Shown here one piece after another: positions 903 to 51,595 of a DNA stretch of 64,000 nucleotides. The stretch comes from Eledone cirrhosa. Its lineage: Eukaryota. Every line of letters starts with the position of its first letter. The first letter of the stretch is position 1. Where the stretch lies: positions 90,830,001 to 90,894,000 of the forward strand of contig OZ024740.1 in NCBI GenBank assembly GCA_964016885.1, read 5' to 3'. The notes below the pieces were generated by a model, which was given only the letters and a program-made list of their open reading frames with translations, was not told where the DNA came from and searched no databases. The position numbers and the translations under genes were made by a program.

Positions 903-936
903 GTTGAAATGTAGTGGAAAAGATGGGAAAGACCAC

Positions 937-2311: not shown

Positions 2312-2564
2312 GATTTTTCCAAGAACAACTTTTGTTTGATAATTATAAAAGTATAAATTTTGGGCTCAAGGCCCCACTCTTTCCGGGTGTCCGTGTGAGA
2401 TAACAATGTGTGTGCACTTATATACAGTTAACAATAACAATTTTCCATAAATGGCAATTTTAAACTACTGAAAATAACAAACATCTGCGGAGCCCACGGT
2501 GATAAGAATTACTACGTAGGTAGTCAATAATAATAATAATAATATTACTAATAATAATAATAAA

Positions 2565-3730
<1,166 letters not shown>

Positions 3731-3952
3731 AATAATAATAATAATAGTAATAATAATAATAATAATAAGAAGAAGAAGAAGAATAAGGGAAGAAGACGCA
3801 CGAGGTGACGGAGGTCATGAAATCGCTCCCGTAAGTTTTGAATTTTTAACATATTTAAATCATTTGTGAAATAACAACTCTTAGTACAAATGCTACGTAA
3901 AGCACCCGGCTTGAGCCCCCCAAAAAGTCGGACCCAAAATATATTGTTATAA

Positions 3953-4595
3953 GGCTCAAATATTCAAATATTCAACTTTGTATTGTACACTGTATATCCC
4001 AAAAAAAATGGCTATAAATGGAAGAAGAAGAACCCCCCCCCCTCCTCTCCTCTGGCTACACTATATAGGACAGCTAAACTCACCAACACCAGAAACTAGA
4101 TACACCACCCACCCCATCATCTGTGTACACTAAACACAAAAGCATTTTCACCTTCACCGCCACCGCTCACTACGGCCATCATTACCACCACTATCCCATC
4201 ACCGCCGCCACCACCCCTTGACTCCTTCACTGCTGCTGCCACCGCTACAGCACCATCACTACAGTAATACGGCTCAAATATTCAAATATTCAACTTTGTA
4301 TTGTACACTGTATATCCAAAAAAAAATAAAACGGCTATAAATGGAAGAAGAAGAACCCCCCCCCCCCTCCTCTCCTCTGGCTACACTATATAGGACAGCG
4401 AAACTCACCAACACCAGAAACTAGATACACCACCCACCCCATCATCTGTGTACACTAAACACAACAGCATTTTCACCTTCACCGCCACTGCTCACTACGG
4501 CCATCATTACCACCACTATCCCATCACCGCCGCCACCACCCCTTGACTCCTTCACTGCTGCTGCCACCGCTACAGCACCATCACTACAGTAATAC
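3953..4595 (+). repeat. Tandem duplication (2 x ~320 bp) in the family A leader
   Basis: The unit GGCTCAAATATTC...CAGTAATAC starts at 3953 and 4271. The same duplication is at 22457 and 22775. Confidence 0.9.
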
Positions 4596-5170
4596 GGTCG
4601 CATCACCGCCACCACTGCCTCGGTATCGACATCACCACCACCACTGTCTCAGTATCGCCAACGCCGCCAGTCTCTGCTGGCTGCCACTTCCACATTATAG
4701 AATTCCTACTACTAACAAAGAGGAAGGCATCAAAATATATAGATAGACTCAAAAGAAAAAAGAAAAAACAAACAACAAAAGCAGCACAGCAACAACAGCA
4801 AAAAACGAGAAAAACAAACAGAGAAAAACAAAAACAAAAAAAGACACCCCAAAAACGTAAAGAAAATAAGAATGAAGAGAGAAGCAGGCGGACGGACAGA
4901 GAAGAGGGGGGAAAAAGTAAAACTTAAAAAACAAAAACTAAGTCAGACATTCGAATACTACATTACAATGAAACTTATGCTTATTCATTTTTGGGGCCCT
5001 TTCTGCCCGTGTGTTTGTTTGTTTATGTGTGTCCGTATACAGCGTGGTGATAATGCCACACAAGGGCCAAGTGGGATGGCGGATCCACAGATGGCTATGT
5101 AAACATACATTCGCCAATCCTCGATAAGAGTGTTTAAATATCGAACATAAACAGTTCGAATAACGGTGAA

Positions 5171-8116: not shown

Positions 8117-8196
8117 GGCTGCAGGTAGTGGCTTGATATTCAATCCAACGGACTTTACAGTTAACCAACATCAATGACTGAGATTCAAGGAATAAC

Positions 8197-8244: not shown

Positions 8245-11200
8245 GGAAGATGACGCACGAGGTGGTAGAAGGTCATGAAATCGCTCCCGTAAGTTTTTAA
8301 TATTTAACGTATTTAAATCAATTGTGAAATAACAATTCTTAGTACAAATGTTGCATAAACCACCGAATCATGTCCCATAAAATTTCGGAATATATGATAT
8401 TGTTATATCGTTCAAATATTCAATTTTGTATTATATATTTTGTATTCAAAAAAGAAAATTGTTATAAATGGAAGAAAACACCCTCTGTCTACACTATATA
8501 GAACATCCAAATAACAGCAAGTTCACCAACACCAGAAACTTGATACACCACCTACCCCATCACACTAAATATAACAGCCAGATAAGGCAATTTCACCACC
8601 ACCACCACCAATCCCAGCATCATAATAATAATTACTATTATTATTGTCTCAAGTTTTAACAAAATGTTTAATTCCAATTTTACGGGAATATGTCAACACA
8701 ATTTATATTAAACATACGCGTCACAAACTCATAGATACTACATATCACAAAACTCAGTAACGACAACGCCACCGCCGCCACCATTCCATCCATCATTGCT
8801 ACCACTATCCCATCACCGCCGCCACCACTCCTTCATTGCTACCACCACTATTCCCCTGTTAACTTGAGAGAGAAAGGGGAAGGTGGCGGTATCACTAGAC
8901 AAGGGAGAGGCTAGCAAAAGATATAAATAGATTGACTTAGTGACCTGGCCAACGGCCAAACGTCAACATCAACAACTATGGCACTGCTGGCTCACCCCTT
9001 CCTCACCAACAATATAAAAAGCCCCAGCACCACCACCGACATAGCCAACAACTATAACAGGCACCTTCAGCAAAAAGCATATTATATTATTGTAATGCAC
9101 TGGGTGATTGCTGGCCTTGTGCCTGGAGACAATTATTAATAATTTCATTCTTAAGCCATGCAATGCTCACATTAAGGAACCACTCATGATAATAACAATT
9201 TAAAAAAAACAACAAAAAGAAAACCCCGTGACCAAGAAATACCGGGATGGCGGCCGGCGGGGAATAGCCGTGTCTCTAGGGGAGAACGACCCCCTCTAGT
9301 CTTGGTTGACACTCGTTCTAGAAGTGGTAACACGAAATGATTACCCCTTGGCGGATAAGGATAACACGCGACAAAATGAAGTAAATGTCTAATGATAAAA
9401 TCTCATACCGGATCGGCCGTCACCCGGGTAAAAAAGGGCCGCGTCCCTCAGAGAGGAACCAGACTGGGGTCGAAAAATCAGCTAATGGTTCAAACCTTCC
9501 CATCACTTCGGAGCTGGAGACCTCCCTTAACCGGAATACTCCTACTGTTGGCCCTCCATGCTCACCACCAAGAAATCCAAAGAAAAAGAGAGAAAAATGG
9601 TCAAGGGAAGATAATAAAGAAGTCCTTGAGGATTTCTACACTGCCATGTACTACCCATCAAATACATCAAATACAGAACAGACATATATCAACTGGAAAA
9701 AGAAACATCCCCAAAACAGAGGCTATATTGACAGTAACAAACTAGCCAATATACGAAGAAATATTGTAAGAAAAAAGTTACTAACTGATATAGAAATTGA
9801 TCAGATCAAGCTATCGGCAAAAAGTCAGCGAAGGGAAAATGAAACATGTGTCAGTGAAAACGAGGTAAATTGTAACACTTCGAATCCCAGGGTTGGGGTG
9901 GAATCACTGGCAACAGAACAAATTAAAGAAAGGATCGAAAAAGTGGAGGGAGTGCATGCTCAAGATGAAACTCCAAATGAAAATAATGAAATGGTAAATG
10001 ATAAAGAAATGAATGAGAATGGACTTGCCAACTTGAAGGATGAAATTATGATCGAATGGATGAAAATGAAAGAATCTGACATGGGGCAACGAGACACCCT
10101 CCGTAAGATCCAGAACTCCAAACAGAACAAAAAGATAATACACAATACTAACATAATTCTCAAAAACATTATCATCACAAACAAACTAAACATTACTGAT
10201 TTAAATCATCTCTATTATGTATCGGCTAAAGTCACCACTCACTTATGTGGAGTGAAGATTAAAAAACAAAGGAATTCCCACAAGAAATCTACTTGGCAAG
10301 AGAACATCAATCGCCAAATAAACCTTCTCCGATCTGACATAGAAATTTTAACAAACTATAAAGTAGTTGAACATGTTAATCAAACTAAACTTAGAAATTT
10401 GAAAAAAAAGTACAGTATAAAATCAACAAGTGACATAGACATGCTGATAGAAATAATCAAGCAAAAAGTGTCGGCCAAAGCTGCTCGTATAAGGCGCTTT
10501 GAAAAACGATCTAGATTCTATAAGGACAATAATATGTCAAAAACAACCAAATAAACATCTACAGAAAAATTGGTAAGTCAACAATAACTGCTCAATCAAT
10601 ACCACCCAAGGAGGAAGTGCAAGAATTCTGGGAAAAGATCTGGGCCGAAGAAAAAGTTCATAACATACATGCCCCATGGATAGACAGACAAATGAAAGAT
10701 ACAGCTCACCTTGAGGAACAAATATGGGAAAATATAACAGTTGAATAGTTGCGCTTGGCTCTAAGAAAAACCAGCAAATAGAAATCCTCAGGAAAAGACA
10801 AAATACAAAACTTTTGGATAAATGCCTTCACAGAGTCTCATGAGCTGTTAGCCCAACTTTACCATGAAATAGTTAAGGAGCCAGAAAAGATACAATCATG
10901 GCTAGATAACGACATTACATTCCTGCTTCCGAAGAATGATGAGACAAACAATCACAAAAATTACAGACCGATAACTTGCTTGACCACAATGTATAAAATT
11001 TTAACATCAGTCCTCACTGAATACACATATGACCACCTGATAACAAATGACCTATTTCCCATTGAGCAGAAAGGGTGTAAACGAGGCTTATATGGCTGTA
11101 AGGATCAGCTTCTGGTTAACAAAATGCTACTGGAAGATTGTCATTATAGACACAAACATCTATCGATTGCTTGGATAGATTATAAAAAAGCATTCGATAG

Positions 11201-13178
11201 TTTGCCACACAGTTGGATTGAAAAATGTTTAGAGATTTTCAAAATATCCCCCGTTGTCAGGAGGTTTGTGTCATTCAGTATGAAGACATGGAAAACGACA
11301 CTCCTTTTGAATAGTGAAACAAAATCACTGGAAGCTGGAGAAGTTAATATTAATTGTGGAATTTTTCAGGGTGACTCTTTATCACCGCTTTTATTCTGCA
11401 TCGCCCTTATACCATTAAGAAAAATGCTCAATGAAACAAAACATGAATATAAAGTCTATGACAAAACCATTAATCACTTGTTCTACATGGATGACCTGAA
11501 ACTATTTACGAAAAATGATGGACAATTGCAAGGGCTATTATCCACTGTGGAGCAGTTCAGTGATGACATTAAAATGGAGTTTGGACTAGATAAATGCGCC
11601 AAAGCAACGTTCACCAGAGGAAAGCTGCTGAAGAGTTCAGACATTAATCTTGATTGGGGGAACGTGATAAGAGAACTTGATCAAGAAAAAAACTTACAAA
11701 TATCTAGGTGTTTGTGAAGGAGACGGAATCAAGCACTCGACAATGAGGGAAAGGATAAGGAAGGAATGTTACCGCAGAGTAAGAGCAATCTTAAGAACGG
11801 AATTGAATGCAAGGAATAGGATCGATGCCATAAACACGCTTGCCATACCAGTAGTAACCTACAGTTACAATGTCATCAACTGGTCAAGCACAGAGATCCG
11901 TAGGCTCGATACAAAAATTTGAAAATTCTTAACCATGCACAGAATGCATCTCCCTAAGGCAGATATAGATAGAATATATCTCCCTAGGAAAGAAGGAGGA
12001 CGTGGGTTAATCCAGTTAGACATTGCGTTGAAAACTGCAACAATTGGATTATCTACATATCTAAGGGAATCACATGATTGGGTGATCAAACTGGTTTTGA
12101 AACACGAAAGCATCAAAAGATCATATTCCATTACAAAAGATGCACAAAGATACAGTAATGGACTACAAATTTCAGAAGTCCCATTTACTGCTGAAATGGA
12201 AAACACAGAAAAAGCAAAGCAGGTAAAAGTAACTGCAAAGAAAGAACTGCTACCAAAGCTGGCTAAGAAATGGCAAGAAAAGCCTCTGTATGGAAAATAC
12301 CCAGAGCGAGCTAACAATCCTGATGTTGACAAAACTTTAACCCATCAGTGGTTGGCATCCTCTGGACTGAAATCGGAGACTGAAGGACTGATTATATCAG
12401 CACAAGATCAGTGTCTGCCAACAAAATATTACCAAGCCAACATAATAAAAAATGGGTGCAGCCCATTATGCCGTGAATGCAAAAAACAACCAGAGACCAT
12501 TGACCATATAATTTCAATGTGCAGTCCTATAGCTCTAACCGAATACCTAAACAGGCATGACAGAGCTGCACAATACATACATTGGATAATGTGTAAGCAT
12601 TTTGACCTGCCCTATCAAAAGAATTGGTGGGAGCATCAACCACCTCCCATACTTGAAAAAGATCACATCTCAATCTTGTGGAACTTTAGCATCCAAACAG
12701 ACCGAAAAATAGATGCAAATAGACCTGATATAATATTGAAGGACTTTAAAAAGAGGGTATGCTTGCTAATTGATATGTCTGTTCCAATAGACAAGAATGT
12801 ATCTATAAAAACATTTGAAAAATTGAGCAAGTATAAGGACCTGGAGAGAGAAATTGGAAAAATGTGGAAATTGAGAACTAAAACAATACCAGTGGTTGTA
12901 GGCGCTCTGGGAATGATACCTAAGGGGTCTAATGATTACATATCGCAAATCCCAGGAAACCCGCGTATAGGAGAAATACAAAAGATAGTACTAATGGGAA
13001 CTGCCCATATACTAAGGAAGATTCTGTCAATATAAGTACATCACCAGTCTAAACACTAACGATGCATGTGTGAATATGTATGTTCTTTCTTGAACATGGC
13101 GGACCTTGTTGTCTCTTGAGGTCACTGGTTGTGACTTGGTGATAACTCGTATGAACATAAAGCAAGATAAATGCAACT

Positions 13179-13180
<2 letters not shown>
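8242..13180 (+). mobile_element. R4/Dong-like family B, apparently full-length defective copy B1
   Basis: Leader, broken ORF, 3' UTR and TAA tail. The 5' boundary is inferred from the preceding TAA tract. Confidence 0.85.
9385..13035 (+). pseudogene. RT-RLE ORF of family B with frameshifts and stops
   Basis: ORF pieces 9385-10554, 10980-11717, 11677-11922 and 11935-13035 give QGDSLSP, YMDD, CREC..H...C and RPD..D motifs. Confidence 0.92.
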
Positions 13181-13241: not shown

Positions 13242-16237
13242 AAACAAACTAAACATTACTGATTTAAATCATCTCTATGATGCATCGGCTAAAATCACCA
13301 CTCACTTATGTGGAGTGAAGATTAAAAAACAAAGGAATTCCCACAAGAAATCTACTTGGCAAGAGAACATCAATCGCCAAATAAACCTTCTCCGATCTGA
13401 CATAGAAATTTTAACAAACTATAAAGTAGTTGAACATGTTAATCAAACTAAACTTAGAAATTTGAAAAAAAAGTACAGTATAAAATCAACAAGTGACATA
13501 GACATGCTGATAGAAATAATCAAGCAAAAAGTGTCGGCCAAAGCTGCTCGTATAAGGCGCTTTGAAAAACGATCTAGATTCTATAAGGACAATAATATGT
13601 CAAAAACAACCAAATAAACATCTACAGAAAAATTGGTAAGTCAACAATAACTGCTCAATCAATACCACCCAAGGAGGAAGTGCAAGAATTCTGGGAAAAG
13701 ATCTGGGCCGAAGAAAAAGTTCATAACATACATGCCCCATGGATAGACAGACAAATGAAAGATACAGCTCACCCTGAGGAACAAATATGGGAAAATATAA
13801 CAGTTGAATAGTTGCGCTTGGCTCTAAGAAAAACCAGCAAATAGAAATCCTCAGGAAAAGACAAAATACAAAACTTTTGGATAAATGCCTTCACAGAGTC
13901 TCATGAGCTGTTAGCCCAACTTTACCATGAAATAGTTAAGGAGCCAGAAAAGATACAATCATGGCTAGATAACGACATTACATTCCTGCTTCCGAAGAAT
14001 GATGAGACAAACAATCACAAAAATTACAGACCGATAACTTGCTTGACCACAATGTATAAAATTTTAACATCAGTCCTCACTGAATACACATATGACCACC
14101 TGATAACAAATGACCTATTTCCCATTGAGCAGAAAGGGTGTAAACGAGGCTTATATGGCTGTAAGGATCAGCTTCTGGTTAACAAAATGCTACTGGAAGA
14201 TTGTCATTATAGACACAAACATCTATCGATTGCTTGGATAGATTATAAAAAAGCATTCGATAGTTTGCCACACAGTTGGATTGAAAAATGTTTAGAGATT
14301 TTCAAAATATCCCCCGTTGTCAGGAGGTTTGTGTCATTCAGTATGAAGACATGGAAAACGACACTCCTTTTGAATAGTGAAACAAAATCACTGGAAGCTG
14401 GAGAAGTTAATATTAATTGTGGAATTTTTCAGGGTGACTCTTTATCAGCGCTTTTATTCTGCATCGCACTTATACCATTAAGTAAAATGCTCAATGAAAC
14501 AAAACATGAATATAAAGTCTATGACAAAACCATTAATCACCTGTTCTACATGGATGACCTGAAACTATTTGCAAAAAATGATGAACAATTGCAAGGGCTA
14601 TTATCCACTGTGAAGCAGTTCATTGATGACATTAAAATGGTGTTTGGACTAGATAAATGCGCCAAAGCAACGTTCACCAGAGGAAAACTGCTGAAGAGTT
14701 CAGACATTAATCTTGATCGGGGGAACGTGATAAGAGAACTTGATCATAAAAAAACTTACAAATATCTAGGTGTTTGTGAAGGAGATGGAATCAAGCACTC
14801 GACAATGAGGGAAAGGATAAGGAAAGAATGTTACCGCAGAGTAAGAGCAATCTTAAGAACGGAATTGAATGCAAGGAATAGGATCGATGCCATAAACACG
14901 CTTGCCATACCAGTAGTAACCTACAGTTACAATGTCATCAACTGGTCAAGAACAGAGATCCGTAGGCTCGATACACAAATTCGAAAATTCTTAACCATGC
15001 ACAGAATGCATCACCCTAAGGCAGATATAGATAAAATATATCTCCCTAGGAAAGAAGGAGGACGTGGGTTAATCCAGTTAGACATTGCGTTGAAAACTGC
15101 AACAATTGGATTATCTACATATCTAAGGGAATCACATGATTGGATGATCAAACTCGTTTTGAAACACAAAAGCATCAAAAGATCATATTCCATTACAAAA
15201 GATGCACAAAGATACAGTAATGGACTACACATTTCAGAAGTCCCATTTACTGCTGAAATGGAAAACACAGAAAAAGCAAAGCAGGTAAAAGTAACTGCAA
15301 AGAAAGAACTGCTACAGAAACTGGCTAAGAAATGGCAAGAAAAGCCTCTGTATGGAAAATACCCAGAGCGAGCTAACAATCCTGATGTTAACAAAACTTT
15401 AACCCATCAGTGGTTGGCATCCTCTGGACTGAAATCGGAGACTGAAGGACTAATTATATCGGCACAAGATCAGTGTCTGCCAACAAAAAATTACCATGCC
15501 AACATAATAAAAAATGGGTGCAGCCCATTATGCCGTGTATGCAAAAAACAACCAGAGACCATTGACCATATAATTTCAATGTGCAGTCCTATAGCTCAAA
15601 CCGAATACCTAAACAGGCATGACAGAGCTGCACAATACATACATTGGATAATGTGTAAACATTTTGACCTGCCCCATCAAAAGAATTGGTGGAAGTATCA
15701 ACCACCTCCCATACTTGAAAAAGATCACATCTCAATCTTGTGGAACTTTAGCATCCAAAAAGAACGAAACATAAATGCAAATAGACCTGATATAATATTG
15801 AAGGACTTTCAAAGGAGGGTATGCCTGCTAATTGATATGTCTGTTCCAATAGACAAGAATGTATCTATAAAAACATTTGAAAAATTGAGCAAGTATAAGG
15901 ACCTGGAGATAGAAATTGGAAAATGTGGAAATTGAGAATTAAAACAATACCAGTGGTTGTAGGCGCTCTGGGAATGATACCTAAGGGGTCTAACGACTAC
16001 TTATCGCAAATCCCAGGAAACCCGCGTATAGGAGAAATACAAAAGATAGTACTAATGGGAACTGCCCATATACTAAGGAAGATCCTGTCAATATAAGTAC
16101 ATCACAAGTCTAAACACATAAGGATGCATGTGTGAATATGTATGTTCTTTCTTGAACATGGCGGACCTTGTAGTCACTTGAGGTCACTGGCTGTGACTTG
16201 GTGATAACTCGTATGAACATAAAGCAAGATAAATGCA

Positions 16238-16238
<1 letters not shown>
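13242..16238 (+). mobile_element. Family B 5'-truncated defective copy B2
   Basis: Starts at the position equivalent to 10179. RT/RLE is in ORF 14043-15935, with a frameshift near 15925. TAA tracts on both sides. Confidence 0.92.
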
Positions 16239-16284
<46 letters not shown>

Positions 16285-16544
16285 TTTCTTTATTAACCAC
16301 AAGGGTTTACATAAAGTAGACATTAAGGACAGTGCAGGACAATGCAGGACGGTACAAATGGGCATTTCTGCGTGTAAAAAAACAAAAACAGAGGATGTAA
16401 CAAAAATAACAATGAAAATAACAATGAAAAATTCCCCAATAGGGGGGAGACTTCGGAGGGACATTTGTGGAGAAAGCCCAGTAAAAAGCCACAATGACCC
16501 TGACCACCAAGGCAAGTGCCCTCTCCCAGTTTTCCACCTTTACT

Positions 16545-19500
16545 TTACAGATATATACTCAGAGTCGGCCCATTCACTCGGGCCATTCTTGCTTCTCTCA
16601 CCCATCTTTCAACAAAATGCTGGGAAGAGAGCACTTCCTTCTCTACTCTGATTTTCCTTTTCAAATGAAATTTGAAAAAGTCAATCAGAGCATCACCGAA
16701 GAGGTAAGTGCTCGTCTTCAGCCCTTTCAAACGTGTCCACCATACTATCTCTTTCGCCATGGCCACCAGGCAGATAAAAACTGCCTGCCCTTCCCGGCTA
16801 AAGGAGGAGGGCGGGGCAATCCTCACGATGGACTCAGATGATAGCCGGATCCGTCCTAAACGCGACAGCAGGTGTTCGACATAAACCCACAAGTCAGCAA
16901 TTTTCGGACACTGGACGAGTGCGTGCAGGACGGTTTCGTCGCCCTGCGCGCATCTCGGACATGCCCGGCTGACGGCACCTCCATGCCTGTAGAGTTTATC
17001 CCGAACTGGCAAGGCTCCTCGGTAGCACTGCCAGGCCAGAGATTTCTGGAAGTTGTCCATAGGCCCTGGCCCGAAAGTTCTTCCGAAGAGATTGGCTAGT
17101 TGATTTTCGTCGACGCCTAGAGTTTCCCCAAGTACGTCGTCGCTCTTCCCCTCCACTAATCCTCTATAGAACGCCGAGGTGGAGTTTCCACCGATCACAT
17201 TGCCCGATTGGTCGAGGGCTGTGAGCGCCTGAAGACATTCCAGTCTCCAGGCGCTCCCTCTCGGTCTTCGCTTGACCCAGGACTGCAGCTCCGTCAAGGA
17301 AACGAGCTGGGGAAACACGCGTCTAGCAAACGGCGACCACACCTGATCACCGTCGAGGAAGAGGTGGAGATGTCGTAGCCTGAGCGCGTGCCTGCGCATC
17401 ATCAGCCACGGCATGCCCAGCCCTCCACGTAGCGGGTGTTGACAACAGATGGACCGCCTGACCATCGGAGCGCGTCCCTTCCACAAAAAGCGAAAGAGCA
17501 AACGCTCCATCACAGTCAGGCGAGGCTTAGGACAAGGTACGACGGTCAGGCGGTAGCAGATGACGGACGCGATGTACGCGTTAGCCACCTCCGCTCGACC
17601 TTTCAGGGATAGCTTCCTCTCGGCCCATTTCTGGGTGAGAGAAGCCACCCTGCTCGTCACCTCGTCCCAGTTTTTGTCCGTCTGGAGGTCCGGACCGAAC
17701 CAGACCCCTAGCAATTTAACCGGTCCGTCCGTCCAGCGTCCGACGACGCTGTTGGACGGCATGGACCTGCCTCTCCAGGTGCCGAGCTGCAGGCCCACTG
17801 ACTTTTCCTGGTTGATCATTGCTCCTGTCACCGCTTCGTATTCTCTTAGTGTAGTGCCGATCGCCTCGATGTGTTTGGCGTTCGACACCACTACGGTGAC
17901 ATCGTCCGCATATGCTGATACGGATCTTCCGCATCCTAGTTCGCGCGGGACCCCCCTCAACGTCTCCAGTTTGTGCAGTAATGGCTCGAGAGTCAATACG
18001 TACAAGAGGGACGAGAGGGGACATCCTTGGCGGACCGAGCGCATGATGTTGAACGGTTCCGACAGGTGACCGTTCACTCTCACCACAGAGCAGATGTCGC
18101 TGTGCATGGCAGCGATCCAGCCTCTGAAGACGGGCCCAAAGCCAGCCACCCTCAGGACTGCCGCTAGGTAACGATGGTCGACCCTATCGAAAGCTTTCGA
18201 CTGATCTAAATTGATCAAGGACCCACCCGTGCCAGGTTCCCTAGCTACCCTCTCTACGATGTATCGCATGAGGTGGAGGTTGTCGTGGATGGATCTGTCG
18301 GGAATGGCGCATGTCTGCGCCTCTCCCATCAGACCACCAACGACAAGCGCCAACCTCTTTGCTAGCATCTTGGCCAAAATCTTAAACTCTGTGTTTAGCA
18401 GAGTTATGGGCCGGAAATTGTCTATGTTATCCCCCTTGTTCGGATCCTTTCTCAGCAGTGCCACCGCTCCTCGGCTCACAGAACTGGGAATTCTCCCGTT
18501 CTGTTGCCAGTTGCAGTAGACGTCCGCCAAGAGGCCTCCGAACAAGTCTGGCATCTGTACGTAAAGTTCATAGGGCAGACAATCCAAACCAGGCGATTTA
18601 CCCCTTGTGCAGCCAGTCATTGCCTCCCTTACTTCAGCGGCTGTTATCGGCTTTTCGCAACACTTCGCCTCAGTGGCCGAGAGCCGCGGCAGTCCGTCGA
18701 GGTAGACACTAAAGTCCATCCCTCTACCCGGCCCCCCGCTGCCCCCGAACAGCTGAGCGAAGTGTCGCTGAAAAGCTTCACACATTTGCCCGGGATCGAG
18801 TAGCATGCGCCCGTCGTGGTCCACCAAAGACCGGATCGTGGCTTTGTTGCCACGACGCGCCTCCGCCACTCGGGCCCATTGAACGGCTTTCGTCCCCTCG
18901 TGTCTGAGAGCACGCACCCTAGCTCTGACAACGCAGCCTTCGTGCTTTGCATTGAAGAATTGGTCAAGGGCCAATTTCGCCGCAAGCACGTCGGTCGCAA
19001 TGCCTTTGCTAAGCGCCTCGTCTAATTTTCTAACTAGTTCTCCCTCTGCTCTATTTTTCTCTATTGCTAAAGCCTTACTAAACCTAATCGATTCTATTCT
19101 AATCGCTCTTTTCAGAGCAAACCACCACTTGTTGTTGACGATGGCCCCCTTCAACGCCCGCTTAACTAGTTCGCTAATCCGGTCTCTGTAGGCCTTGCGC
19201 GCTGGTAAGGACGCGTTTAGCTTCCAGTAGCCGGGTCCTCGTCTATGAAGCCTATCTAAGTCAAGCACACAGATCACGAATTTGTGGTCCGTGTAGCTGA
19301 CTATCTTGAATTGTGGACAGCCTATGCTAGACCTATCTATTTCCCTACAAAATACTCTATCTAGATATGATCTGGATGACCCTATGCGGTTTGTCCAAGT
19401 CCACATTGGCACATTCGGGAAATCCAATCGGTACCTGTCAGACAGTTCAAAACGCCTGAGCAGGTTGGTGAGGCTCTTGCACCCTCCACCCCTATCCGCT

Positions 19501-19964
19501 AATCCCACACAGTCCCAGCGTACATCTAAGATCCCGTTCCAGTCGCCCACTAACACTAAAGAGCGGGACGTTCCAAGAAAGGTCTCCAGACGCCGGAAGA
19601 AATCAGGCCGCCCTGCTCCTGTCGGGGCATAGACGGCCACTAGCCTGAAAGCTTGCCCGTCTCCGCTGGTCACGTCCAGCACCACCAGCTTACCCTCTGG
19701 GTCCAGGAAGATGGCCCGTATGGCGAGATCCAAACCTCTCCGAAAAAGCACAGCAACTCCTCCACCCGATCCAGGACGGCTGGGAGATGCGTACACATCG
19801 TAGCCGCCGAAGATCGGTACGAAGGCCCGTGCTTCGGAGATTCTGGTCTCGCTGATGGCCACTACATCTATGTTTAGTGACCTGAGGTCGTTGAGCAGGT
19901 GACCCTGCTTCCATGACGACCCCAAGCCACGCGCATTTATGCTGCCTATTCTGAGTGAGGTCAT
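16545..19964 (-). CDS. ORF2: APE endonuclease, reverse transcriptase and C-terminal zinc knuckle, 1139 aa, uninterrupted
   Basis: NARG/SET/GDWN/LDR/TDH APE motifs; FRPITLLN, KAFD, RQGCPLS, YADD; GGLG; CPRC...H....C. Confidence 0.95.
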   Translation of the reverse strand: MTSLRIGSINARGLGSSWKQGHLLNDLRSLNIDVVAISETRISEARAFVPIFGGYDVYASPSRPGSGGGVAVLFRRGLDLAIRAIFLDPEGKLVVLDVTSGDGQAFRLVAVYAPTGAGRPDFFRRLETFLGTSRSLVLVGDWNGILDVRWDCVGLADRGGGCKSLTNLLRRFELSDRYRLDFPNVPMWTWTNRIGSSRSYLDRVFCREIDRSSIGCPQFKIVSYTDHKFVICVLDLDRLHRRGPGYWKLNASLPARKAYRDRISELVKRALKGAIVNNKWWFALKRAIRIESIRFSKALAIEKNRAEGELVRKLDEALSKGIATDVLAAKLALDQFFNAKHEGCVVRARVRALRHEGTKAVQWARVAEARRGNKATIRSLVDHDGRMLLDPGQMCEAFQRHFAQLFGGSGGPGRGMDFSVYLDGLPRLSATEAKCCEKPITAAEVREAMTGCTRGKSPGLDCLPYELYVQMPDLFGGLLADVYCNWQQNGRIPSSVSRGAVALLRKDPNKGDNIDNFRPITLLNTEFKILAKMLAKRLALVVGGLMGEAQTCAIPDRSIHDNLHLMRYIVERVAREPGTGGSLINLDQSKAFDRVDHRYLAAVLRVAGFGPVFRGWIAAMHSDICSVVRVNGHLSEPFNIMRSVRQGCPLSSLLYVLTLEPLLHKLETLRGVPRELGCGRSVSAYADDVTVVVSNAKHIEAIGTTLREYEAVTGAMINQEKSVGLQLGTWRGRSMPSNSVVGRWTDGPVKLLGVWFGPDLQTDKNWDEVTSRVASLTQKWAERKLSLKGRAEVANAYIASVICYRLTVVPCPKPRLTVMERLLFRFLWKGRAPMVRRSICCQHPLRGGLGMPWLMMRRHALRLRHLHLFLDGDQVWSPFARRVFPQLVSLTELQSWVKRRPRGSAWRLECLQALTALDQSGNVIGGNSTSAFYRGLVEGKSDDVLGETLGVDENQLANLFGRTFGPGPMDNFQKSLAWQCYRGALPVRDKLYRHGGAVSRACPRCAQGDETVLHALVQCPKIADLWVYVEHLLSRLGRIRLSSESIVRIAPPSSFSREGQAVFICLVAMAKEIVWWTRLKGLKTSTYLFGDALIDFFKFHLKRKIRVEKEVLSSQHFVERWVREARMARVNGPTLSIYL

Positions 19965-19999
19965 GTTTAAAATAGAGTGGAAAAGATGGGAAAGACCAC

Positions 20000-22074
20000 T
20001 TACCGTACTTTTGGTAGAGGAGGGATGGTTTTTACATCCCTTTTCACTTGATCGTCTGGTGAAGGGACCGTTGAATCGTCCCTTCGGCTGGTCGTCGGCT
20101 CTTCTAAGAGAATGTCTGAGTATACTCTTCGATTGATGGTTCCTCCTAGGTCCCTGAAATCACCAACTGCGTTGGGGAATTTCGTTTTAATGTTTGTGTA
20201 TTGTTTCTGTGCTATTTTTAGCAGTCTTATGTTAGTTGGCGTTTTGATTGGTGCTGGTATTATGTAGTCCTGTTGTGAAATGTCTGTGTGTTCAATTATG
20301 TAAGTCATTAGTTTCTTGTTGTGTGTATTTATTGCCGTGCATTTGTTTTTCTGGGGGTGGGGTGTGGTTCTGCTATTTTCTTGTCGTTGTTGCTGGGTGT
20401 GTGTGTTTTGTTGTTGTGTTTGCGATGTTGGTGCTTGTGGTGGTGGTGTTGAAGGTGTTGTTGGCGGTGGGGTTGTCGCCGGTGGTGATGGTGGCGCTAG
20501 TGTGGGTGGTGATGGTGTTGGTGTTGTTGCTGCTGTGGGTCTCTTTGCAGTAGACTTTACCCTTTTCTCATTTCTTTCCTCCCTTTTCAAAGGCGACGAT
20601 GCGCTGCTTCTGCGTTTGTGCCTTCTTACGACCTTTTGCCATCTCTCTCCCACCTCACACTCCATGTCTGATTCTGTGAGGTCGGGGAGGGGTACCAACT
20701 CCACTCTTTCACTTGTTGTTGTTGGTGATGTTTGCACTGGAGTTTCTGTTGCAGCTGCATTTGGTATTGCTGTTGTTGTTGTTAGTATTTCCACTGCTGC
20801 TGCTGTTTTTGATTTCCGTGGAGTGGGTATGGGGGCCACGGGCCTATCGTTCCTGGTTGCCGCTTGTCCTGTTGCTGGTAGCCGTGGAGCCGGATTCGGA
20901 AGGAGGGGGGTTTTCTCCTTTCTCAGGGTCTTCTCGTTGCAGAAGGCCCTGAGGTGAGTCTTCGATCCACAGCGAAAGCATTTCGGGCGTTTGCCCTCAA
21001 CACTTATGGGCAGTTGAGTGCCGTTATCGAAGTCTATCACATCCGGGATAGCTTCGATGCACTCCTGGTTGGTTTGGATTAGCATCTCAATGGAGGAGCC
21101 GACCCAATCTTCTCTTACTTTTTTCTGTACTTGCAGTACAGTTGTTTTGTCCTCGATTCCGACGAGGACAGACGCGGCCAGCCAAGAAGGGGTCATTCCG
21201 GGGGGGGGGGGACGTGGGTCAGTTTGACCCTCACAGTTTTTTGCCCACAGTAGGAGGGCACCAACACCATTTCCTCGCTCCTTAGGGTCACTACTGATTG
21301 GGCCTTTGCCTCCTGGGGTGTGGCAAAAAGTACGTCTACGGTGGCATATTTTTTGCCTCGGGTGATGTGCGTTTTCCGCTGCCACACAGACCCCAAGGCT
21401 TTTTGTATTTGGGCCTCTGTGGCTCTTTCCACCCTACGGGATTTTGTACTTACTGTACGGTACGTGACCGTACAGTGCTCTTGGGTTTCGAAAAAAATTT
21501 TCGCTGCCTTGCAGATTGCTCGGTGTCCGTTCTTTGTCACCATCTTCTTCGCTTCCTCTAATTCCTCATTTGTTATGAGGATTGTTTCCAAGTTTTTCGC
21601 AATACCTGCAAATGAGATTGGTTTTTCTCTGCTGTTGTTGTTGTCGTCAGAGCTGCTGGTACTGTTGTTGTTGCTGCAGGTACTACGACTACTGCCTCCG
21701 CCGCTGTTGCTGTGGTTGTTGTTGTTGTTGCTGCTGCTAATGCTGTTGTTGTTTATGCTGCTGGTGATGCTGTTGCGGCTGCTACTGTTGTTTTCATTGT
21801 CACTGTTGCTGTTGTTATTACGGCTGCTACTGCTATTATTCCAGACGTCAGACGAATGAACTGGGTTTTCGTATTTCCCGCACACCTGTTTCGTCGCTGT
21901 CGTCGTCGTCGTGGAGAAACCTTGCACGCTTTGCACGAGACTTTTCTTTTCTTTCGTCACTTGCGAAAGAGAAGGGAGGGAGAGAGACAATCTTCTCTCT
22001 GCTGTAGTGATGATTGAGGAAGAAGAAGACGGAATGAGTGGGAGTGACGTATGAAATTTCTTTTTCGTAGCCAT
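20000..22074 (-). CDS. ORF1 (gag-like, CCHC knuckle) split by one frameshift at a G12 run
   Basis: ORF 21193-22074 joins ORF 20000-21385 at the homopolymer 21200-21211. Contains the CFRCGSKTHLRAFC knuckle and N/S- and P/T-rich tracts. Confidence 0.8.
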
Positions 22075-22310
22075 GTTGTTTTTTGTTTAAAATGAAATTT
22101 TGGGTACAAAACCCCAATAACTGGTTATTTAACCCCGAAGCGCCAAATAACGGACAGAAAGACCCCTCTCACGAGGAGGAGGGTGTCTTTATCAACAATT
22201 TGGTTCAAGTTTTAAACAATTTACAATTGTTTTAACGGTTAAAAATTACTATACCTTACAGAGCCGAGCCTCCGTCAACCATGGCATTCAATAATAATAA
22301 TAATAATAAT

Positions 22311-25300
22311 GGAAGGGAAGATGAAATCGCTCCCGTAAGTTTTGAATTTTTAACATATTTAAATCATTTGTGAAATAACAACTCTTAGTACAAATGCTAC
22401 GTAAAGCACCCGGCTTGAGCCCCAAAAAAATTCGGACCCAAAATATATTGTTATAAGGCTCAAATATTCAAATATTCAACTTTGTATTGTACACTGTATA
22501 TCCAAAAAAAATGGCTATAAGTGGAAGAAGAGGAACCCCCCCCCCCTCCTCTCCTCTGGCTACACTATATAGGACAGCTAAACTCACCAACACCAGAAAC
22601 TAGATACACCACCCACCCCATCATCTGTGTACACTAAACAAAACAGCATTTTCACCTTCACCGCCACCGCTCACTACGGCCATCATTACCACCACTATCC
22701 CATCACCGCCGCCACCACCCCTTGACTCCTTCACTGCTGCTGCCACCGCTACAGCACCATCACTACAGTAATACGGCTCAAATATTCAAATATTCAACTT
22801 TGTATTGTACACTGTATATCAAAAAAAAAAATAAAATGGCTATAAAATGGAAGAAGAAGAACCCCCCCTCCTCCTCTCCTCTGGCTACACTATATAGGAC
22901 AGCGAAACTCACCAACACCAGAAACTAGATACACCACCCACCCCATCATCTGTGTACACTAAACACAACAGCATTTTCACCTTCACCGCCACCGCTCACT
23001 ACGGCCATCATTACCACCACTATCCCATCACCGCCGCCACCACCCCCTGACTCCTTCACTGCTGCTGCCACCGCTACAGCACCATCACTACAGTAATACG
23101 GTCGCATCACCGCCACCACTGCCTCGGTACCGACATCACCACCACCACTGTCTCAGTATCGCCAACGCCGCCAGTCTCTGCTGGCTACCACTTCCACATT
23201 ATAGAATTCCTACTACTAACAAAGAGGAAGGCATCAAAATATATAGATAGACTCAAAAGAAAAAAGAAAAAAACAAACAACAAAAGCAGCACAGCAACAA
23301 CAGTAAAAAACGAGAAAAACAGAGAAAAACAAAAACAAAAAAAGAAACCCCAAAAACGTAAAGAAAATAAGAATGAAGAGAGAAGCAGGCGGACGGACAG
23401 AGAAGAGGGGGAAAAAGTAAAACTTAAAAAACAAAAACTAAGTCAGACATTCGAATACTACATTACAATGAAACTTATGCTTATTCATTTTTGGGGCCCT
23501 TTCTGCCCGTGTGTTTGTTTGTTTATGTGTGTCCGTATACAGCGTGGTGATAATGCCACACAAGGGCCAAGTGGGATGGCGGATCCACAGATGGCTATGT
23601 AAACATAAATTCGCCAATCCTCAATAAGAGTGTTTAAATATCGAACATAAACAGTTCGAATAACGGTGAAATGGAGACTAGAACGTCATGTGACAGACTC
23701 TCACCCAACAGGTGCCCCCTGGCTCAGCAGCAGGAACCTGACTGTCAACCAAATACTGCTGATGTTGGAGGAAGAAGAAGAAGGAAAGGGGCCAGAACCA
23801 ACTGGACGAAAGAATTGAATAGAACTGTTATGCAATGCTACCTGAAAAGTAACCCCAAGGAGAGGGGCTACAGGAGACGGATGCATAACATCTGGAACGA
23901 GATTGGTTTATTTAAATTAGATGAACAAAAATTGGCCGGGCAGGCTCGGGTAATAAGAACTAATGGGTGGATAAGCGAGCTGGAACTGGAGGAACTGAGC
24001 AGAGAGAATGGCTTGGAGATGGCGGGTGTAGTATGCCAGACAAGCGAGCCGGCGGGAAATGAAGGTGAGGAGGTCCTGAGAACGGAGGAACCACCCGAAG
24101 CAGACAATGATCTGAATACTGAGATAAATAATACCTGGAACAGAGATACGGCCACTGAGGAGATGAATGCTGACGGGCTAGGACAAGATTCGGTTGACAT
24201 CCTAAATTTAGTGGTAGATGAGTTGAACAATGATAGTGGGAGACCTATGAACCTGAGATTTGTAGACAGGAAAAAGTTAAAAGAAACAACAGCTAAGGTA
24301 AACAAAGTCATCCCATACCTTGAGGCGAGGATTCTTCACCAGTGCAACAATATCCTCAAAGCAACAGCAAATACGGTGAGGAAACTACTTGGTATAAAAG
24401 CGAGAGGAAACAACAGACAAGAAAGAGCAGAGCCGTGGTGGAGGAAGCGACTGAGTGGGCAAATCGGGGAAATGAGAAATGACATAGGAAAGCTTGAGTC
24501 ACTACTGAATGGGACACTAAAAAACATAGGCACTAAAAATAGACTGGAAATAAAATACAAGACTAGGAGTAAAAAGCTAAATATTATCATAGAGGAATTG
24601 AAGCAACGCATTGTAGCAAAGAGTGCCAAAATCAGGCGATACGAGAACAGAGTCAGTCAGTATAAACAGAACCGCATGTTCGACAACAACCAGAAGATGC
24701 TGTTTGGACAGATTGAGGGGAAAGAAAGAGGCAACGACTTGATCCCTGGGGCGGAACAAGCTAATACATTCTGGAGAGGAATATGGGAGCAGGATGTTAG
24801 ACACAATGCCCAGGCAGGGTGGATTGAGACAGTACAGAGGGAGATCGGTGAGCAGGCACAGCAACAGACTGATTTGAGTATCACAGTTGAAACTCTTAAG
24901 GGGCAAGCCAAAAAGCTAACCAACTGGAAATCACCAGGCCCAGATGGTGTGCAGGGGTATTGGATTAAACATTTAACATCCCTCCACCCGAAGCTGACGG
25001 CCATGCTCAATGACTGCTTGGTGTCGGGTGAGGTGCCAGAGTGGTTGACAAAAGGTACCACAGTTCTGATAATGAAAGACCGAATCAAGGGTAATGATGT
25101 TACCAACTATAGACCTATCACATGTATGCCCGTAATGTGGAAACTGTTGACGAGCATTGTGTCTGATGAAATCTGCCATCACCTCCACACAAACAACTTG
25201 TTGCCGGACGAACAGAAAGGATGCCGAAAGAAGTCACGTGGTACAAAGGACCAGTTGCTTATTGATAAGATGGTAATGGGGAATTGCAGGAGGAGACACA

Positions 25301-27137
25301 CTGATCTTGCCATGGGATGGATAGACTACAGAAAGGCATTTGACATGGTGCCTCATTCCTGGATCACCAAAAGCCTGGAGATCTTCAGGGTGGCAGATAA
25401 CATCAGACAGTTGCTGGGCAGGAGTATGGGGTCCTGGGAGACAGAGTTGACATCAACTGGAGTATCCTTGGGAAGCGTGAAGATCAAGAGAGGTATCTTC
25501 CAGGGAGATAGCCTGTCCCCTCTGTTGTTTGTCCTTGCCCTGATGCCCTTGACCATTATGCTGCGAAAAGTGAGAGCAGGATACAAGTTGGGAAGGGGAG
25601 AGCTTACCATCAATCACCTCCTCTTCATGGACGATCTTAAGCTCTTCGGGAAAAGTGAGAAGGAGTTGGATGTGCTTGTTGACACTGTCCGTATTTTCAG
25701 CAGTGATATATGTATGCAGTTTGGTATTGGTAAATGTGGAGTCATTGTGATGAGGACGGGTAGGTTGAGCAGAAGTAACGGGATCCAGATACCAACAGGT
25801 GAGATGATAAAGGAAATTGACTCTGAGGAAGGATACAAGTATTTGGGCGTTCTGGAGGCTGATGGCATAAAGAACAAAAAAATGAAGGAATTGTTAAGAA
25901 CTGAATACATTCGGAGAGTAAGGAGCGTATTGAAGTCACATCTGAACAGCAGAAATGCCATAAGCGCAGTAAATTCCCGAGCTGTGTCTATTATTAGGTA
26001 CAGTGCGGGAATTCTGAGATGGAATGTTGCTGAACAAAAAGAAATGGATAGGAAGACTAGGAAGCTATTGACTATCTACAACATGTTCCACAAGAGGAGT
26101 GATGTCGATAGACTCTACCTAAGGAGATCTGAGGGTGGAAGAGGTCTTATCAGCATAGAGGACTGTGTTCAGATGGAGAAAAACAACCTATACAAATACG
26201 TGACCTATAGTAAGGAGCCAATGCTCAGAGCTGTACTGAAGGAGGGGACAGTAGGCCAGGGGATATCCAAGGAGGAAATAACATCAAGGAGGAAGAGCAG
26301 CCTTAAGGGAAAATCCCTTCATAGTACCTTCTTTGAGAAAACTGAATTTAGAGATCCACAGACATGGAACTGGTTGAGAAGAGGAGACCTCAAAAAGGCT
26401 ACAGAAGGAATGCTAATGGCTGCGCAGGAGCAGGCCCTCAAAACGAAGTGGTTGAAGCACCATATCTACAAGGAGGAGGCTAGCCCACTGTGCAGGATCT
26501 GTGGAGAGAGAGAGGAGACTGTGGCTCACATTGTGTCCGAGTGTAAACACCTAGCCCAGACCCACTATAAGGGCTGGAGACACGATGTGATGGGCAGGGT
26601 GATCCACTGGCACCTGTGCAAAGTAAACAATCTACCACATTCTGAGAAATGGTATGAGCATAGGCCAGAGGCGGTGATGGAGAACAGTCAGGTGAAGGTG
26701 CTGTGGGATTTTAGGATACAGACGGACAAAAAACTGGAACACAATAGACCTGACCTGGTGGTTGTGGACAAAGAAAAAAGATCGTGCCTGATTGTGGATG
26801 TGGCCTGCCCGTTCGACACGAGAGTGCAAGAGAAGGAGAGGGAGAAAATTAACCGATACCAGGACCTAAAGTGGGAGGTGAAAAGGATTTGGAACTGCCA
26901 TGAAGTCAAAGTGATCCCGATTGTCATAGGCGCACTGGGGACTATCTCCAAAGGTTTCCAGGGATGGTTAAAGAAAATCGGCCCCTTCACGCTTTTTGGA
27001 ACGCTTCAAAAGGCATGCTTGCTTGGAACGGCAAGAACCCTCCGATACGTCCTGAATATCTGAGGCTGCAGGTAGTGGCTTGATATTCAATCCAACGGAC
27101 TTTCCAGTTAACCAACATCAACGACTGAGATTCAAGG
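22311..27137 (+). mobile_element. R4/Dong-like family A copy A3, full length, intact
   Basis: ~1.36-kb leader, intact ORF, short 3' UTR, then (TAA)n(GAA)n to 27315. Confidence 0.92.
23671..27063 (+). CDS. RT-RLE protein (R4/Dong clade), 1130 aa
   Basis: N-terminal RTNWT..LN...M.CY (Myb-like, inferred), complete RT (FMDD), CCHC knuckle, PD-(D/E)xK RLE. Confidence 0.95.
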   Translation: METRTSCDRLSPNRCPLAQQQEPDCQPNTADVGGRRRRKGARTNWTKELNRTVMQCYLKSNPKERGYRRRMHNIWNEIGLFKLDEQKLAGQARVIRTNGWISELELEELSRENGLEMAGVVCQTSEPAGNEGEEVLRTEEPPEADNDLNTEINNTWNRDTATEEMNADGLGQDSVDILNLVVDELNNDSGRPMNLRFVDRKKLKETTAKVNKVIPYLEARILHQCNNILKATANTVRKLLGIKARGNNRQERAEPWWRKRLSGQIGEMRNDIGKLESLLNGTLKNIGTKNRLEIKYKTRSKKLNIIIEELKQRIVAKSAKIRRYENRVSQYKQNRMFDNNQKMLFGQIEGKERGNDLIPGAEQANTFWRGIWEQDVRHNAQAGWIETVQREIGEQAQQQTDLSITVETLKGQAKKLTNWKSPGPDGVQGYWIKHLTSLHPKLTAMLNDCLVSGEVPEWLTKGTTVLIMKDRIKGNDVTNYRPITCMPVMWKLLTSIVSDEICHHLHTNNLLPDEQKGCRKKSRGTKDQLLIDKMVMGNCRRRHTDLAMGWIDYRKAFDMVPHSWITKSLEIFRVADNIRQLLGRSMGSWETELTSTGVSLGSVKIKRGIFQGDSLSPLLFVLALMPLTIMLRKVRAGYKLGRGELTINHLLFMDDLKLFGKSEKELDVLVDTVRIFSSDICMQFGIGKCGVIVMRTGRLSRSNGIQIPTGEMIKEIDSEEGYKYLGVLEADGIKNKKMKELLRTEYIRRVRSVLKSHLNSRNAISAVNSRAVSIIRYSAGILRWNVAEQKEMDRKTRKLLTIYNMFHKRSDVDRLYLRRSEGGRGLISIEDCVQMEKNNLYKYVTYSKEPMLRAVLKEGTVGQGISKEEITSRRKSSLKGKSLHSTFFEKTEFRDPQTWNWLRRGDLKKATEGMLMAAQEQALKTKWLKHHIYKEEASPLCRICGEREETVAHIVSECKHLAQTHYKGWRHDVMGRVIHWHLCKVNNLPHSEKWYEHRPEAVMENSQVKVLWDFRIQTDKKLEHNRPDLVVVDKEKRSCLIVDVACPFDTRVQEKEREKINRYQDLKWEVKRIWNCHEVKVIPIVIGALGTISKGFQGWLKKIGPFTLFGTLQKACLLGTARTLRYVLNI

Positions 27138-27149
27138 AATAACAATAAC

Positions 27150-45160: not shown

Positions 45161-45240
45161 CTCTTTGAGCTCTGCTCTTTGTGGAGAAAAATATCTCATG
45201 TTGATGCGTAGTCTGTCTGCAACTGGGTCCCAAGTTCATA

Positions 45241-47839: not shown

Positions 47840-47991
47840 TTCATTATTTAACGATCGTTTCTAGGATATATGTGTTAGAATTGGCATGCATATTCAACAG
47901 ATCTATGTACAAAATTATACAAAATTATACAAACTATCAAAATTAAATATACATACCAACACATATATATGCCGTCTTCAGAAATAATGAA
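47840..47991 (-). ncRNA. Type I hammerhead, inverted copy of 59316-59469
   Basis: TTCATTATTT-AACGATCGTTTC at 47840 and TCTTCAG-AAATAATGAA at ~47975-47991 on +. Confidence 0.8.
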
Positions 47992-48581: not shown

Positions 48582-48637
<56 letters not shown>

Positions 48638-50551: not shown

Positions 50552-50589
<38 letters not shown>

Positions 50590-50626
50590 ATACACATATA
50601 TATACACATACACACATCAACTACAA

Positions 50627-50675
<49 letters not shown>

Positions 50676-50788: not shown

Positions 50789-50845
<57 letters not shown>

Positions 50846-51506: not shown

Positions 51507-51595
<89 letters not shown>

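What the first reader, a model, noticed from the sequence alone, without database searches (positions are those of the whole stretch)
16239..22310. Candidate (TTA)n-specific Tx1-like element with intact ORF2
Seen: T2 sits inside a TAA tract with TAA on both sides, and T1's 5' end also abuts TAA. Both read ATTATTATTGA at the 5' junction on -. Known: Tx1-clade Kibi and Koshi target TC/TTC microsatellites. I do not recall a TTA-specific one, so this may be convergence on the Dong target from the opposite strand.
Basis: partly seen in the sequence, partly recalled or inferred. Interest (0 to 1): 0.75.

Follow-up and report, generated by a model that had tools for sequence, protein, structure and literature searches.

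The report
Young LINE that inserts into (ATT)n
This 6-kb jumping gene is one of thousands of copies whose complete members almost all start directly after an ATT repeat and face the opposite way to Dong-type elements in the same repeats; it likely nicks that repeat with its own L1/Tx1-type enzyme, a known habit of such elements but a repeat target I did not find described for this group.

Summary
Observation confirmed. T2 (16283-22290, minus strand) is a two-ORF APE-RT-zinc-finger LINE with (ATT)15 at its 3' end and (ATT)7 at its 5' end. Genome-wide, 1574 of 1625 exact T2-type 5' ends follow TTATTATTAT in one phase (background 65 of 220,000 positions). So do 1509 of 1677 5' ends of the T1 type, which has a different 5' module on the same ORF2. 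11 of 28 5'-truncated copies also abut ATT (background 0.2%); 17 do not. Some copies have only 3-4 bases of tail, so ATT is not just a tail. Neighbouring Dong-type pieces face the other way (96 of 97). Corrections: ORF2 is open (1139 aa) but has a private G462C change, ORF1 is frameshifted, and the shared 'GA' at T1's junction is incidental. Tx1 membership is inferred; no tree with named references could be built. Nicking by the endonuclease is inferred, not shown. Microsatellite-targeting Tx1 elements are known (Kibi, Koshi, crocodilian families); an ATT target was not found in my searches, but Repbase and a key figure were not visible. The scan has noted this family at least nine times on other DNA.

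The parts
16283..22290 (-). T2, full-length LINE (6008 bp), about 98.7-98.9% identical to young sibling copies
22291..22310 (-). 5' flanking (ATT)7 tract; beyond it the slightly truncated 5' end of a Dong-type element facing the other way
16238..16282 (-). 3' (ATT)15 tract, shared with the (TAA)n tail of the opposite-facing E element; preceded by AATAAA at the element's end
22075..22290 (-). 5' UTR, 216 bp; the head begins TGAATG
20000..22074 (-). ORF1 (about 697 aa in siblings; CX2CX4HX4C knuckle; low-complexity linkers), split in this copy by a frameshift
   Evidence: no Pfam family above cut-off
21200..21211 (-). 12-C run (7 C in most siblings) that shifts the ORF1 frame
16545..19964 (-). 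ORF2, 1139 aa: APE endonuclease, RT, C-terminal zinc finger; private G462C
19245..19964 (-). APE endonuclease domain; catalytic N10, E39, Y112, D141, N143, D202, D226, H227 all present
17703..18434 (-). RT core (Pfam RVT_1, E 2.5e-28), YADD motif
1..2524 (-). T1: 5' part of a sister subfamily (other 5' UTR and ORF1, same ORF2 at 92.5%), degraded; (ATT)n at 2526-2563 on its 5' side
22321..27138 (+). Dong-type RLE element D2 (1141-aa open frame, C-terminal CCHC and RPD..D motif), followed by (AAT)40(AAG)20
13242..16237 (+). 5'-truncated copy of second RLE family E, whose TAA tail T2 abuts
8275..13180 (+). RLE family E, longer copy between TAA tracts
3817..8190 (+). Dong-type element D1 between TAA tracts
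2563..3730 (+). two 5'-truncated RLE fragments (Dong-type 2563-3267, E 3355-3730) separated by TAA tracts

Best explanation
T2 is a recent copy of an abundant two-ORF APE-type LINE, likely of the Tx1 clade, whose complete copies sit directly after (ATT)n in one fixed orientation, likely because its endonuclease nicks the AAT strand of the repeat and the RT primes there. Shown: the anatomy, the 5'-flank bias, the polarity against Dong-type elements, and the same target for two different 5' modules on one ORF2. Inferred: (1) the nick is at a TpA step of the AAT strand, as with L1-type enzymes, and a few AUU bases at the RNA end may pair with the primer; (2) the fixed 5' phase comes from a few upstream ATT bases carried on the RNA that anneal to the target, as described for R1/R2; (3) each insertion leaves ATT on both sides, so copies, a SINE and Dong-type elements (which use the TAA strand with an RLE enzyme) pile into shared arrays; (4) recombination inside arrays makes mosaics. 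This copy is probably dead on its own (ORF1 frameshift, G462C). Odds: ATT targeting about 0.92; endonuclease as main determinant about 0.7; Tx1 clade about 0.85.
For: 1603 of 1625 heads follow ATTAT and 1574 follow TTATTATTAT. 1509 of 1677 T1-type heads follow the tract. Background is 65 of 220,000, and (AT)8+ runs outnumber (ATT)5+ 102 to 7 in 110 kb, yet none of 100 copies abuts (AT)n. 11 of 28 truncated copies abut ATT, in different phases and with 1-4 bases of microhomology. Tails as short as ATTA (L074) or ATT (L086, L079) occur. The 5' tract varies from 9 to 66 nt and is down to ATTAT in L137, so it is not a fixed part of the element. 12 of 50 full-length copies directly follow a family tail; 4 of 10 head-to-tail pairs have heads differing at 3-30 of 400 sites, i.e. 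separate insertions at one tract. Polarity: 96 of 97 Dong/E pieces opposite, 142 of 145 family pieces same. The endonuclease has all catalytic residues; its model (pLDDT 93.7) is closest to human L1 EN (TM 0.78). Only Tx1 and R1 among APE clades are site-specific (PMC6007223, passage).
Against: 17 of 28 truncated copies have no ATT within 14 bases of the 5' junction; four of them are young (L035, L067, L095, L124, 98-99.7% identical to T2). Three sit next to other trinucleotide runs (L079 and L124 ACT-type, L081 CTT). 745 of 3518 3' ends are not followed by a perfect 11-nt tract, although 96 of 100 inspected ends start with ATT. Tail-to-tail contact with Dong does not show which element came first. 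No empty (pre-insertion) allele was seen. No tree with named Tx1 families was possible. The endonuclease hairpin loop is L1-length and gives no sign of specificity by itself.
Confidence: 0.78

Rival explanations
1. The endonuclease is a loose L1-like TpA nicker, and the choice of ATT tracts comes mainly from pairing of an (AUU)n RNA end with the nicked strand (and of 5' AUU with the other side). The outcome in the genome is the same, but the specificity is in the RNA.
For: Nearly all copies end in ATT (96 of 100). The fixed 5' phase points to annealing. Roles for 3' microsatellite pairing are discussed for RTE, I factor, R1Bm and R2Ol (PMC6007223, passages). The EN is closest to L1 EN and its loop is L1-length.
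Against: Some copies have only 3-4 bases of tail (L074, L086, L079). In L061 and L134 the element's last base joins a GTT-initiated tract with no ATT, so a long paired tail is not needed. Crocodilian and teleost Tx1 families target repeats, and the EN is described as the main determinant (PMC4494074, passage).
Confidence: 0.15
2. No targeting: the RNA carries (AUU)n at both ends, the element inserts anywhere, and Dong-type elements and SINEs later pile into the tracts it creates (I factor has a TAA tail, PMC3747384 passage).
For: 17 of 28 truncated copies lack a 5' tract. Order of insertion cannot be read from tail-to-tail junctions.
Against: 11 of 28 truncated copies abut ATT against 0.2% by chance. 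Non-identical family copies sit head to tail. The 5' tract can be as short as 5 bases and is continuous with SINE or family tails. Two unrelated 5' modules show the same flank.
Confidence: 0.05
3. The pattern is mostly made by recombination: a few founder junctions were amplified by tandem duplication or gene conversion, or by assembly artefact.
For: 5 of 10 head-to-tail pairs have identical 400-bp heads, and five have the whole spacer duplicated. Mosaic copies are common.
Against: Beyond the tract the flanks of 50 full-length copies are diverse: 25 Dong/E junctions at many different positions, 12 family tails, 5 SINE tails, 8 unclassified. Copies lie on many chromosomes.
Confidence: 0.02

Closest known systems
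Kibi (TC)n and Koshi (TTC)n of teleosts; crocodilian Tx1 families in (TTCC)n/(TTTC)n (Tx1 clade; PMC4494074 passages and section 15, PMC3812793 passage)
   Same: APE-type LINE inserting into a short microsatellite.
   Different: Target here is (ATT)n, which is not a pyrimidine-only strand. Relationship to Kibi/Koshi was not tested. Fig. 3 of PMC4494074 lists repeat units of other Tx1 families that I could not see.
Dong (Bombyx mori), DongAg, DongBg (TAA target, PMC3812793 passage; R4 clade and RLE enzyme recalled)
   Same: Same microsatellite; Dong-type elements are T2's direct neighbours here.
   Different: Dong-type elements here have a C-terminal RLE-type motif and no APE, and face the opposite way (96 of 97 pieces).
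Human L1 ORF2p
   Same: Best solved-structure match for the whole ORF2 (E 3e-50, against 3e-20 for R2) and for the EN fold (TM 0.78).
   Different: About 22% identity in the EN. ORF1 has a CCHC knuckle, the tail is (ATT)n rather than poly(A), and more than half of the copies are full length.
R1/R2 of Drosophila (PMC2718515, passages)
   Same: Tandem arrays formed by insertion into target left at the 5' end of an earlier copy; 5' junctions set by annealing of upstream target sequence.
   Different: Dispersed microsatellite target instead of 28S rDNA; EN closest to L1, not to R1-clade enzymes, among the rows shown.
L1-Tx1 and Dong-R4 families of Octopus vulgaris (PMC13282606, passages and Table 1)
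   Same: 13 recently active L1-Tx1 and 5 Dong-R4 families in a genome of similar kind.
   Different: The word 'target' does not occur in that paper's main text. The host of this window was not established, and sequences were not compared.

Membership tests
APE-type non-LTR retrotransposon, L1 group | ORF2 with N-terminal APE, RT and C-terminal zinc finger | tested here: met
   Pfam Exo_endo_phos, RVT_1 and zf-RVT above cut-off; catalytic residues present; fold nearest L1 EN
APE-type non-LTR retrotransposon, L1 group | ORF2 closer to L1 than to RLE elements | tested here: met
   phmmer: L1 ORF2p 174 bits, R2 proteins 53-75 bits
Tx1 clade | RT groups with Tx1L/Keno/Kibi/Koshi in a phylogeny | not testable with these tools
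   No named Tx1 protein among the hits; Repbase is not held; no supplement for PMC4494074
Tx1 clade | Two ORFs; ORF1 with CCHC knuckle (feature recalled) | tested here: met
   27 of 33 sibling copies have one ORF1 of about 697 aa; CX2CX4HX4C is visible; Pfam gave no family above cut-off
Tx1 clade | Target-specific insertion (criterion in PMC4494074: more than 20% of flanks) | tested here: met
   96.9% and 90% of 5' ends; 39% of truncated copies
Tx1 clade | Endonuclease cleaves the target sequence specifically | not testable with these tools
   needs a nicking assay
Tx1 clade | Defined target-site duplication | tested here: inconclusive
   Hidden in the repeat. L074 and L086 allow at most about 3-5 bp. 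Long duplications appear only beside a downstream copy.
Kibi/Koshi lineage | (TC)n, (TTC)n, (TTCC)n or (TTTC)n target | tested here: not met
   All 50 inspected full-length copies follow ATT; one truncated copy abuts CTT (L081)
Dong / R4 clade | Single ORF with C-terminal RLE | tested here: not met
   T2 has an N-terminal APE; the RLE-type motif is in the neighbours only
R1 clade | EN and RT closest to R1/TRAS | tested here: inconclusive
   The top 12 Foldseek rows are L1 EN; no R1-clade EN among the rows shown; no tree

The most novel reading that the evidence does not exclude
An undescribed Tx1 lineage evolved an APE endonuclease specific for (AAT)n and shares the Dong target from the other strand, so two unrelated nucleases build common self-feeding arrays. 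In addition, new copies landing just upstream of an old one finish their 5' end by copying the spacer (33-196 bp) and the old head, which would explain the high share of full-length copies and the swapping of ORF1 modules on one ORF2.
Probability: 0.3. Interest if true: 0.68.

Novelty: new variant of a known kind. Interest (0 to 1): 0.45.

Why it matters
It adds a target to the short list of repeats used by site-specific APE LINEs, and it gives a case of an APE and an RLE enzyme using opposite strands of one microsatellite in one genome. How APE-type elements recognise microsatellites is described as not well understood (PMC3812793, passage). This family is young and has many copies with both ORFs open (24 of 33 sampled), so enzyme-versus-RNA targeting can be tested directly. 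It also explains large (TAA)n-linked retroelement stacks that take up tens of megabases of this genome (about 3,500 3' ends of one subfamily alone).

Tried and rejected
Single-sequence AlphaFold of the EN was unusable (pLDDT 33.7) and was replaced by a 72-row alignment. and the T1 translation were in the wrong frame and are not used. Searches for named Tx1 relatives gave only unnamed proteins or one plant LINE protein; the Atlas gave generic RT/EN clusters for a homologue. The search for related loci with P0002 in metagenomes found no relative. No RNA holder listed for the element. Contigs of runs X4, X6 and X7 cover the element, but the tool skipped the repeats, so flanks in other organisms and empty alleles were not seen; X22 gave 4 reads only. 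A long TSD in L122 was rejected because the two sides carry different Dong subfamily variants. The opposite-strand control (0 matches) tests one phase only and adds little. Literature searches found no ATT/TAA/TTA-targeting Tx1 family; one search returned 0 papers. Kojima and Fujiwara 2004, Christensen 2000 and Xiong 1993 are not held and were not read. Considered and rejected: T2 as a Dong element (wrong enzyme); T1 and T2 as one 5' sequence.
Full report
1. What is in the window. The element spans 16283-22290 on the minus strand (6008 bp), with (AAT)15 at 16238-16282 and (AAT)7 at 22290-22310. ORF2 (19964-16545, 1139 aa) has Pfam Exo_endo_phos, RVT_1 and zf-RVT above cut-off. The APE catalytic residues N10, E39, Y112, D141, N143, D202, D226 and H227 are present and conserved in a 72-row alignment. 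An AlphaFold model (pLDDT 93.7) matches human L1 EN best (TM 0.78; the first 12 rows are L1 EN). The whole ORF2 scores 174 bits against L1 ORF2p and 53-75 against R2 proteins. T2 lies in a 27-kb stack: T1 (1-2524, minus), then five RLE-type pieces on plus (2563-3267, 3355-3730, 3817-8190, 8275-13180, 13242-16237), T2, and another RLE element (22321-27138), all joined by TAA tracts. The RLE-type neighbours have RT, no APE, and a C-terminal CCHC plus RPD..D motif; calling them Dong/R4 rests on recall and on the TAA target (PMC3812793, passage). The genome is 3.0 Gb.

2. Is this copy intact? Among 33 other full-length copies, chosen as best matches to T2's 3' ORF2 and so biased to young ones, 27 have a single ORF1 of 600 aa or more, 28 a full ORF2, and 24 both. 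T2's ORF1 is split by a 12-C run (7 C in most siblings; contigs of runs X4 and X6 also lack the five extra letters). T2's ORF2 has C462 where 31 of 33 siblings have G (one E, one unmatched). So the ORF2 frame is open, but the copy is probably not autonomous. The C-run could also be an assembly error.

3. Genome-wide 5' flanks. An exact 25-nt head pattern occurs 1625 times; 1603 follow ATTAT and 1574 follow TTATTATTAT, in one phase. T1 belongs to a second subfamily with another 5' UTR and ORF1 (no nucleotide match; ORF1 about 54% identical) joined to the same ORF2. Its head pattern occurs 1677 times, 1509 after the tract. In eleven hand-picked 10-kb regions the tract precedes 65 of 220,000 positions; (AT)8+ runs outnumber (ATT)5+ runs 102 to 7, and one of these regions itself held family copies. 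Three exceptions to the 10-nt rule that I fetched (L137-L139) and a fourth (L123) all still end in ATTAT; in L137 the tract is only those five bases at a SINE-like tail.

4. Tail or target? A 29-nt 3' pattern occurs 3518 times, 2773 followed by a perfect 11-nt tract. I inspected 100 loci: 40, 10 hits and 60 of the first 100 listed 3' ends, picked mostly for lacking an exact head. Of these 50 were full-length T2 type, 10 T1 type and 28 5'-truncated. Twelve were set aside: four cut by the locus edge, seven with family sequence continuing upstream, one 34-bp match. All 50 full-length copies follow a tract of 9-66 nt. The head was located in 6 of the 10 T1-type loci, all six after ATT. Of the truncated copies 11 of 28 have nine bases of ATT within 14 bases of the junction, against 459 of 219,692 positions by chance; their junctions fall in different phases with short microhomology. 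Against my reading, 17 of 28 do not: seven join the body of a reversed RLE element, three abut ACT- or CTT-type runs, and the rest other DNA. Four of the 17 are young. Target-site or later deletion would explain them but was not shown. On the 3' side 96 of 100 start with ATT, but L074 has only ATTA and L086 and L079 only ATT, so the long 3' tract is not a fixed tail and any duplication at those sites is at most a few bases. No copy abuts (AT)n. Beyond the 5' tract of the 50 full-length copies lie reversed Dong/E 5' junctions at many positions (25), family tails (12), SINE tails (5) or unclassified DNA (8). Order of insertion cannot be read from these contacts. But head-to-tail pairs with clearly different heads (4 of 10) need separate insertions at the same tract.

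5. Polarity. In the 100 loci, 96 of 97 Dong/E pieces of 100 bp or more face opposite to the anchored copy (61 loci), and 142 of 145 family ORF2 pieces face the same way.

6. Mechanism. Shown: structure, flank bias, polarity, one target for two 5' modules. That last point places the choice in ORF2 or the 3' end, not in ORF1 or the 5' UTR. Inferred: target-primed reverse transcription from a nick in the AAT strand. Where a duplicated spacer marks the start site it reads TT|ATT in four of six cases (L031, L043, L052, L068), a TpA step on the other strand as for L1 EN (PMC6007223, passage), and TC|ATT or TC|GTT in two; later recombination may blur this. I cannot separate enzyme specificity from RNA pairing.

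7. Tandem pairs. Of 10 full-length copies followed within 250 bp by another head, five have identical first 400 bp (random pairs 14 of 1225; young-type pairs 14 of 496), and five have the whole spacer duplicated (196, 195, 41, 38, 33 bp). Bodies then diverge: L031/L131 no change in 1-3006, then 7; L061/L134 identical to 587, then 85; L134/L135 to 1298, then 147; L043/L133 to 689, 266 in all. These are not plain duplications. Completion of the 5' end on the neighbouring copy, or later unequal crossover or conversion, would both give this; I leave it open. It also means that the genome-wide counts are not all independent insertions.

8. Comparison with what is known. Kibi (TC), Koshi (TTC) and crocodilian Tx1 families (TTCC, TTTC) target microsatellites (PMC4494074, passages and section 15). 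Dong elements target TAA (PMC3812793, passage). Among APE clades only Tx1 and R1 hold site-specific elements (PMC6007223 and PMC4640811, passages). Eight searches found no ATT-targeting Tx1. Limits: Fig. 3 of PMC4494074 gives repeat units I could not see, its supplement is not held, Repbase is not available, and Kojima and Fujiwara 2004 is not held. No named Tx1 protein was available for a tree, so 'Tx1' is an inference from L1-group ORF2, ORF1 knuckle (recalled feature) and site specificity. It works like Kibi/Koshi; it is not one of them by target.

9. Verdict. A real, young, (ATT)n-targeting APE LINE; a new variant of a known kind unless Repbase already records it. Earlier scan notes (nine listed, eight from this genome) reached similar readings; they are not counted as support. 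Interest 0.45.

Noticed in passing
L031/L131, L043/L133, L061/L134/L135, L052, L068, L039: In head-to-tail pairs the spacer (33-196 bp) is exactly duplicated in front of the upstream copy, and the two heads are identical for 355 to 3006 bp before the bodies diverge. Random pairs have identical 400-bp heads in 14 of 1225 cases. Either the 5' end is completed on the downstream copy, or unequal crossover/conversion acts later.
   Followed up: partly
window 1-2524 versus 16283-22290; L077, L084, L090-L092, L101, L102, L110, L116, L130: Two 5' UTR/ORF1 modules (ORF1 about 54% identical over 100-185 aa, no nucleotide match) switch at one point about 80 bp before the ORF2 start and share ORF2 and tail; about 1,600-1,700 exact heads each.
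   Followed up: partly
L043 3' flank, L034, L049, L062, L065, L098, L125: A short repeat with a B-box-like GTTCAAATCC, ATT tracts on both sides, the same polarity as T2 and a 3' end resembling the family's tail (CCTTGTG...GAAAC-ATT); likely a SINE moved by this LINE.
   Followed up: partly
L133, L070, L120, L072, L089: A more distant sibling family with a related tail also lies in ATT tracts; L133 is a mosaic with a T2-type 5' 4.5 kb and a sibling-type 3' 1.5 kb.
   Followed up: partly
public runs X4, X6, X7 and list: Contigs under three further organism labels cover all 30 bins of the element, with long pieces about 99% identical in X4 and X6; nine runs under six labels hold half or more of its sampled words. 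Close relatives, mislabels or transfer were not told apart.
   Followed up: partly
window 3949-4597 and 22453-23101: The Dong-type elements carry two 325-bp direct repeats in their 5' region.
   Followed up: no
window 49675-58547: A 3.7-kb inverted duplication (94.6%) with further inverted pieces (47777-48623 / 58683-59532) and open frames of 427 and 828 aa without Pfam match.
   Followed up: no
window 45205-47205 (+): Penelope-like RT plus GIY-YIG open frame (666 aa).
   Followed up: no
L079, L124: Two young truncated copies lie next to (ACT)n-type runs, suggesting some tolerance for related trinucleotide repeats.
   Followed up: no
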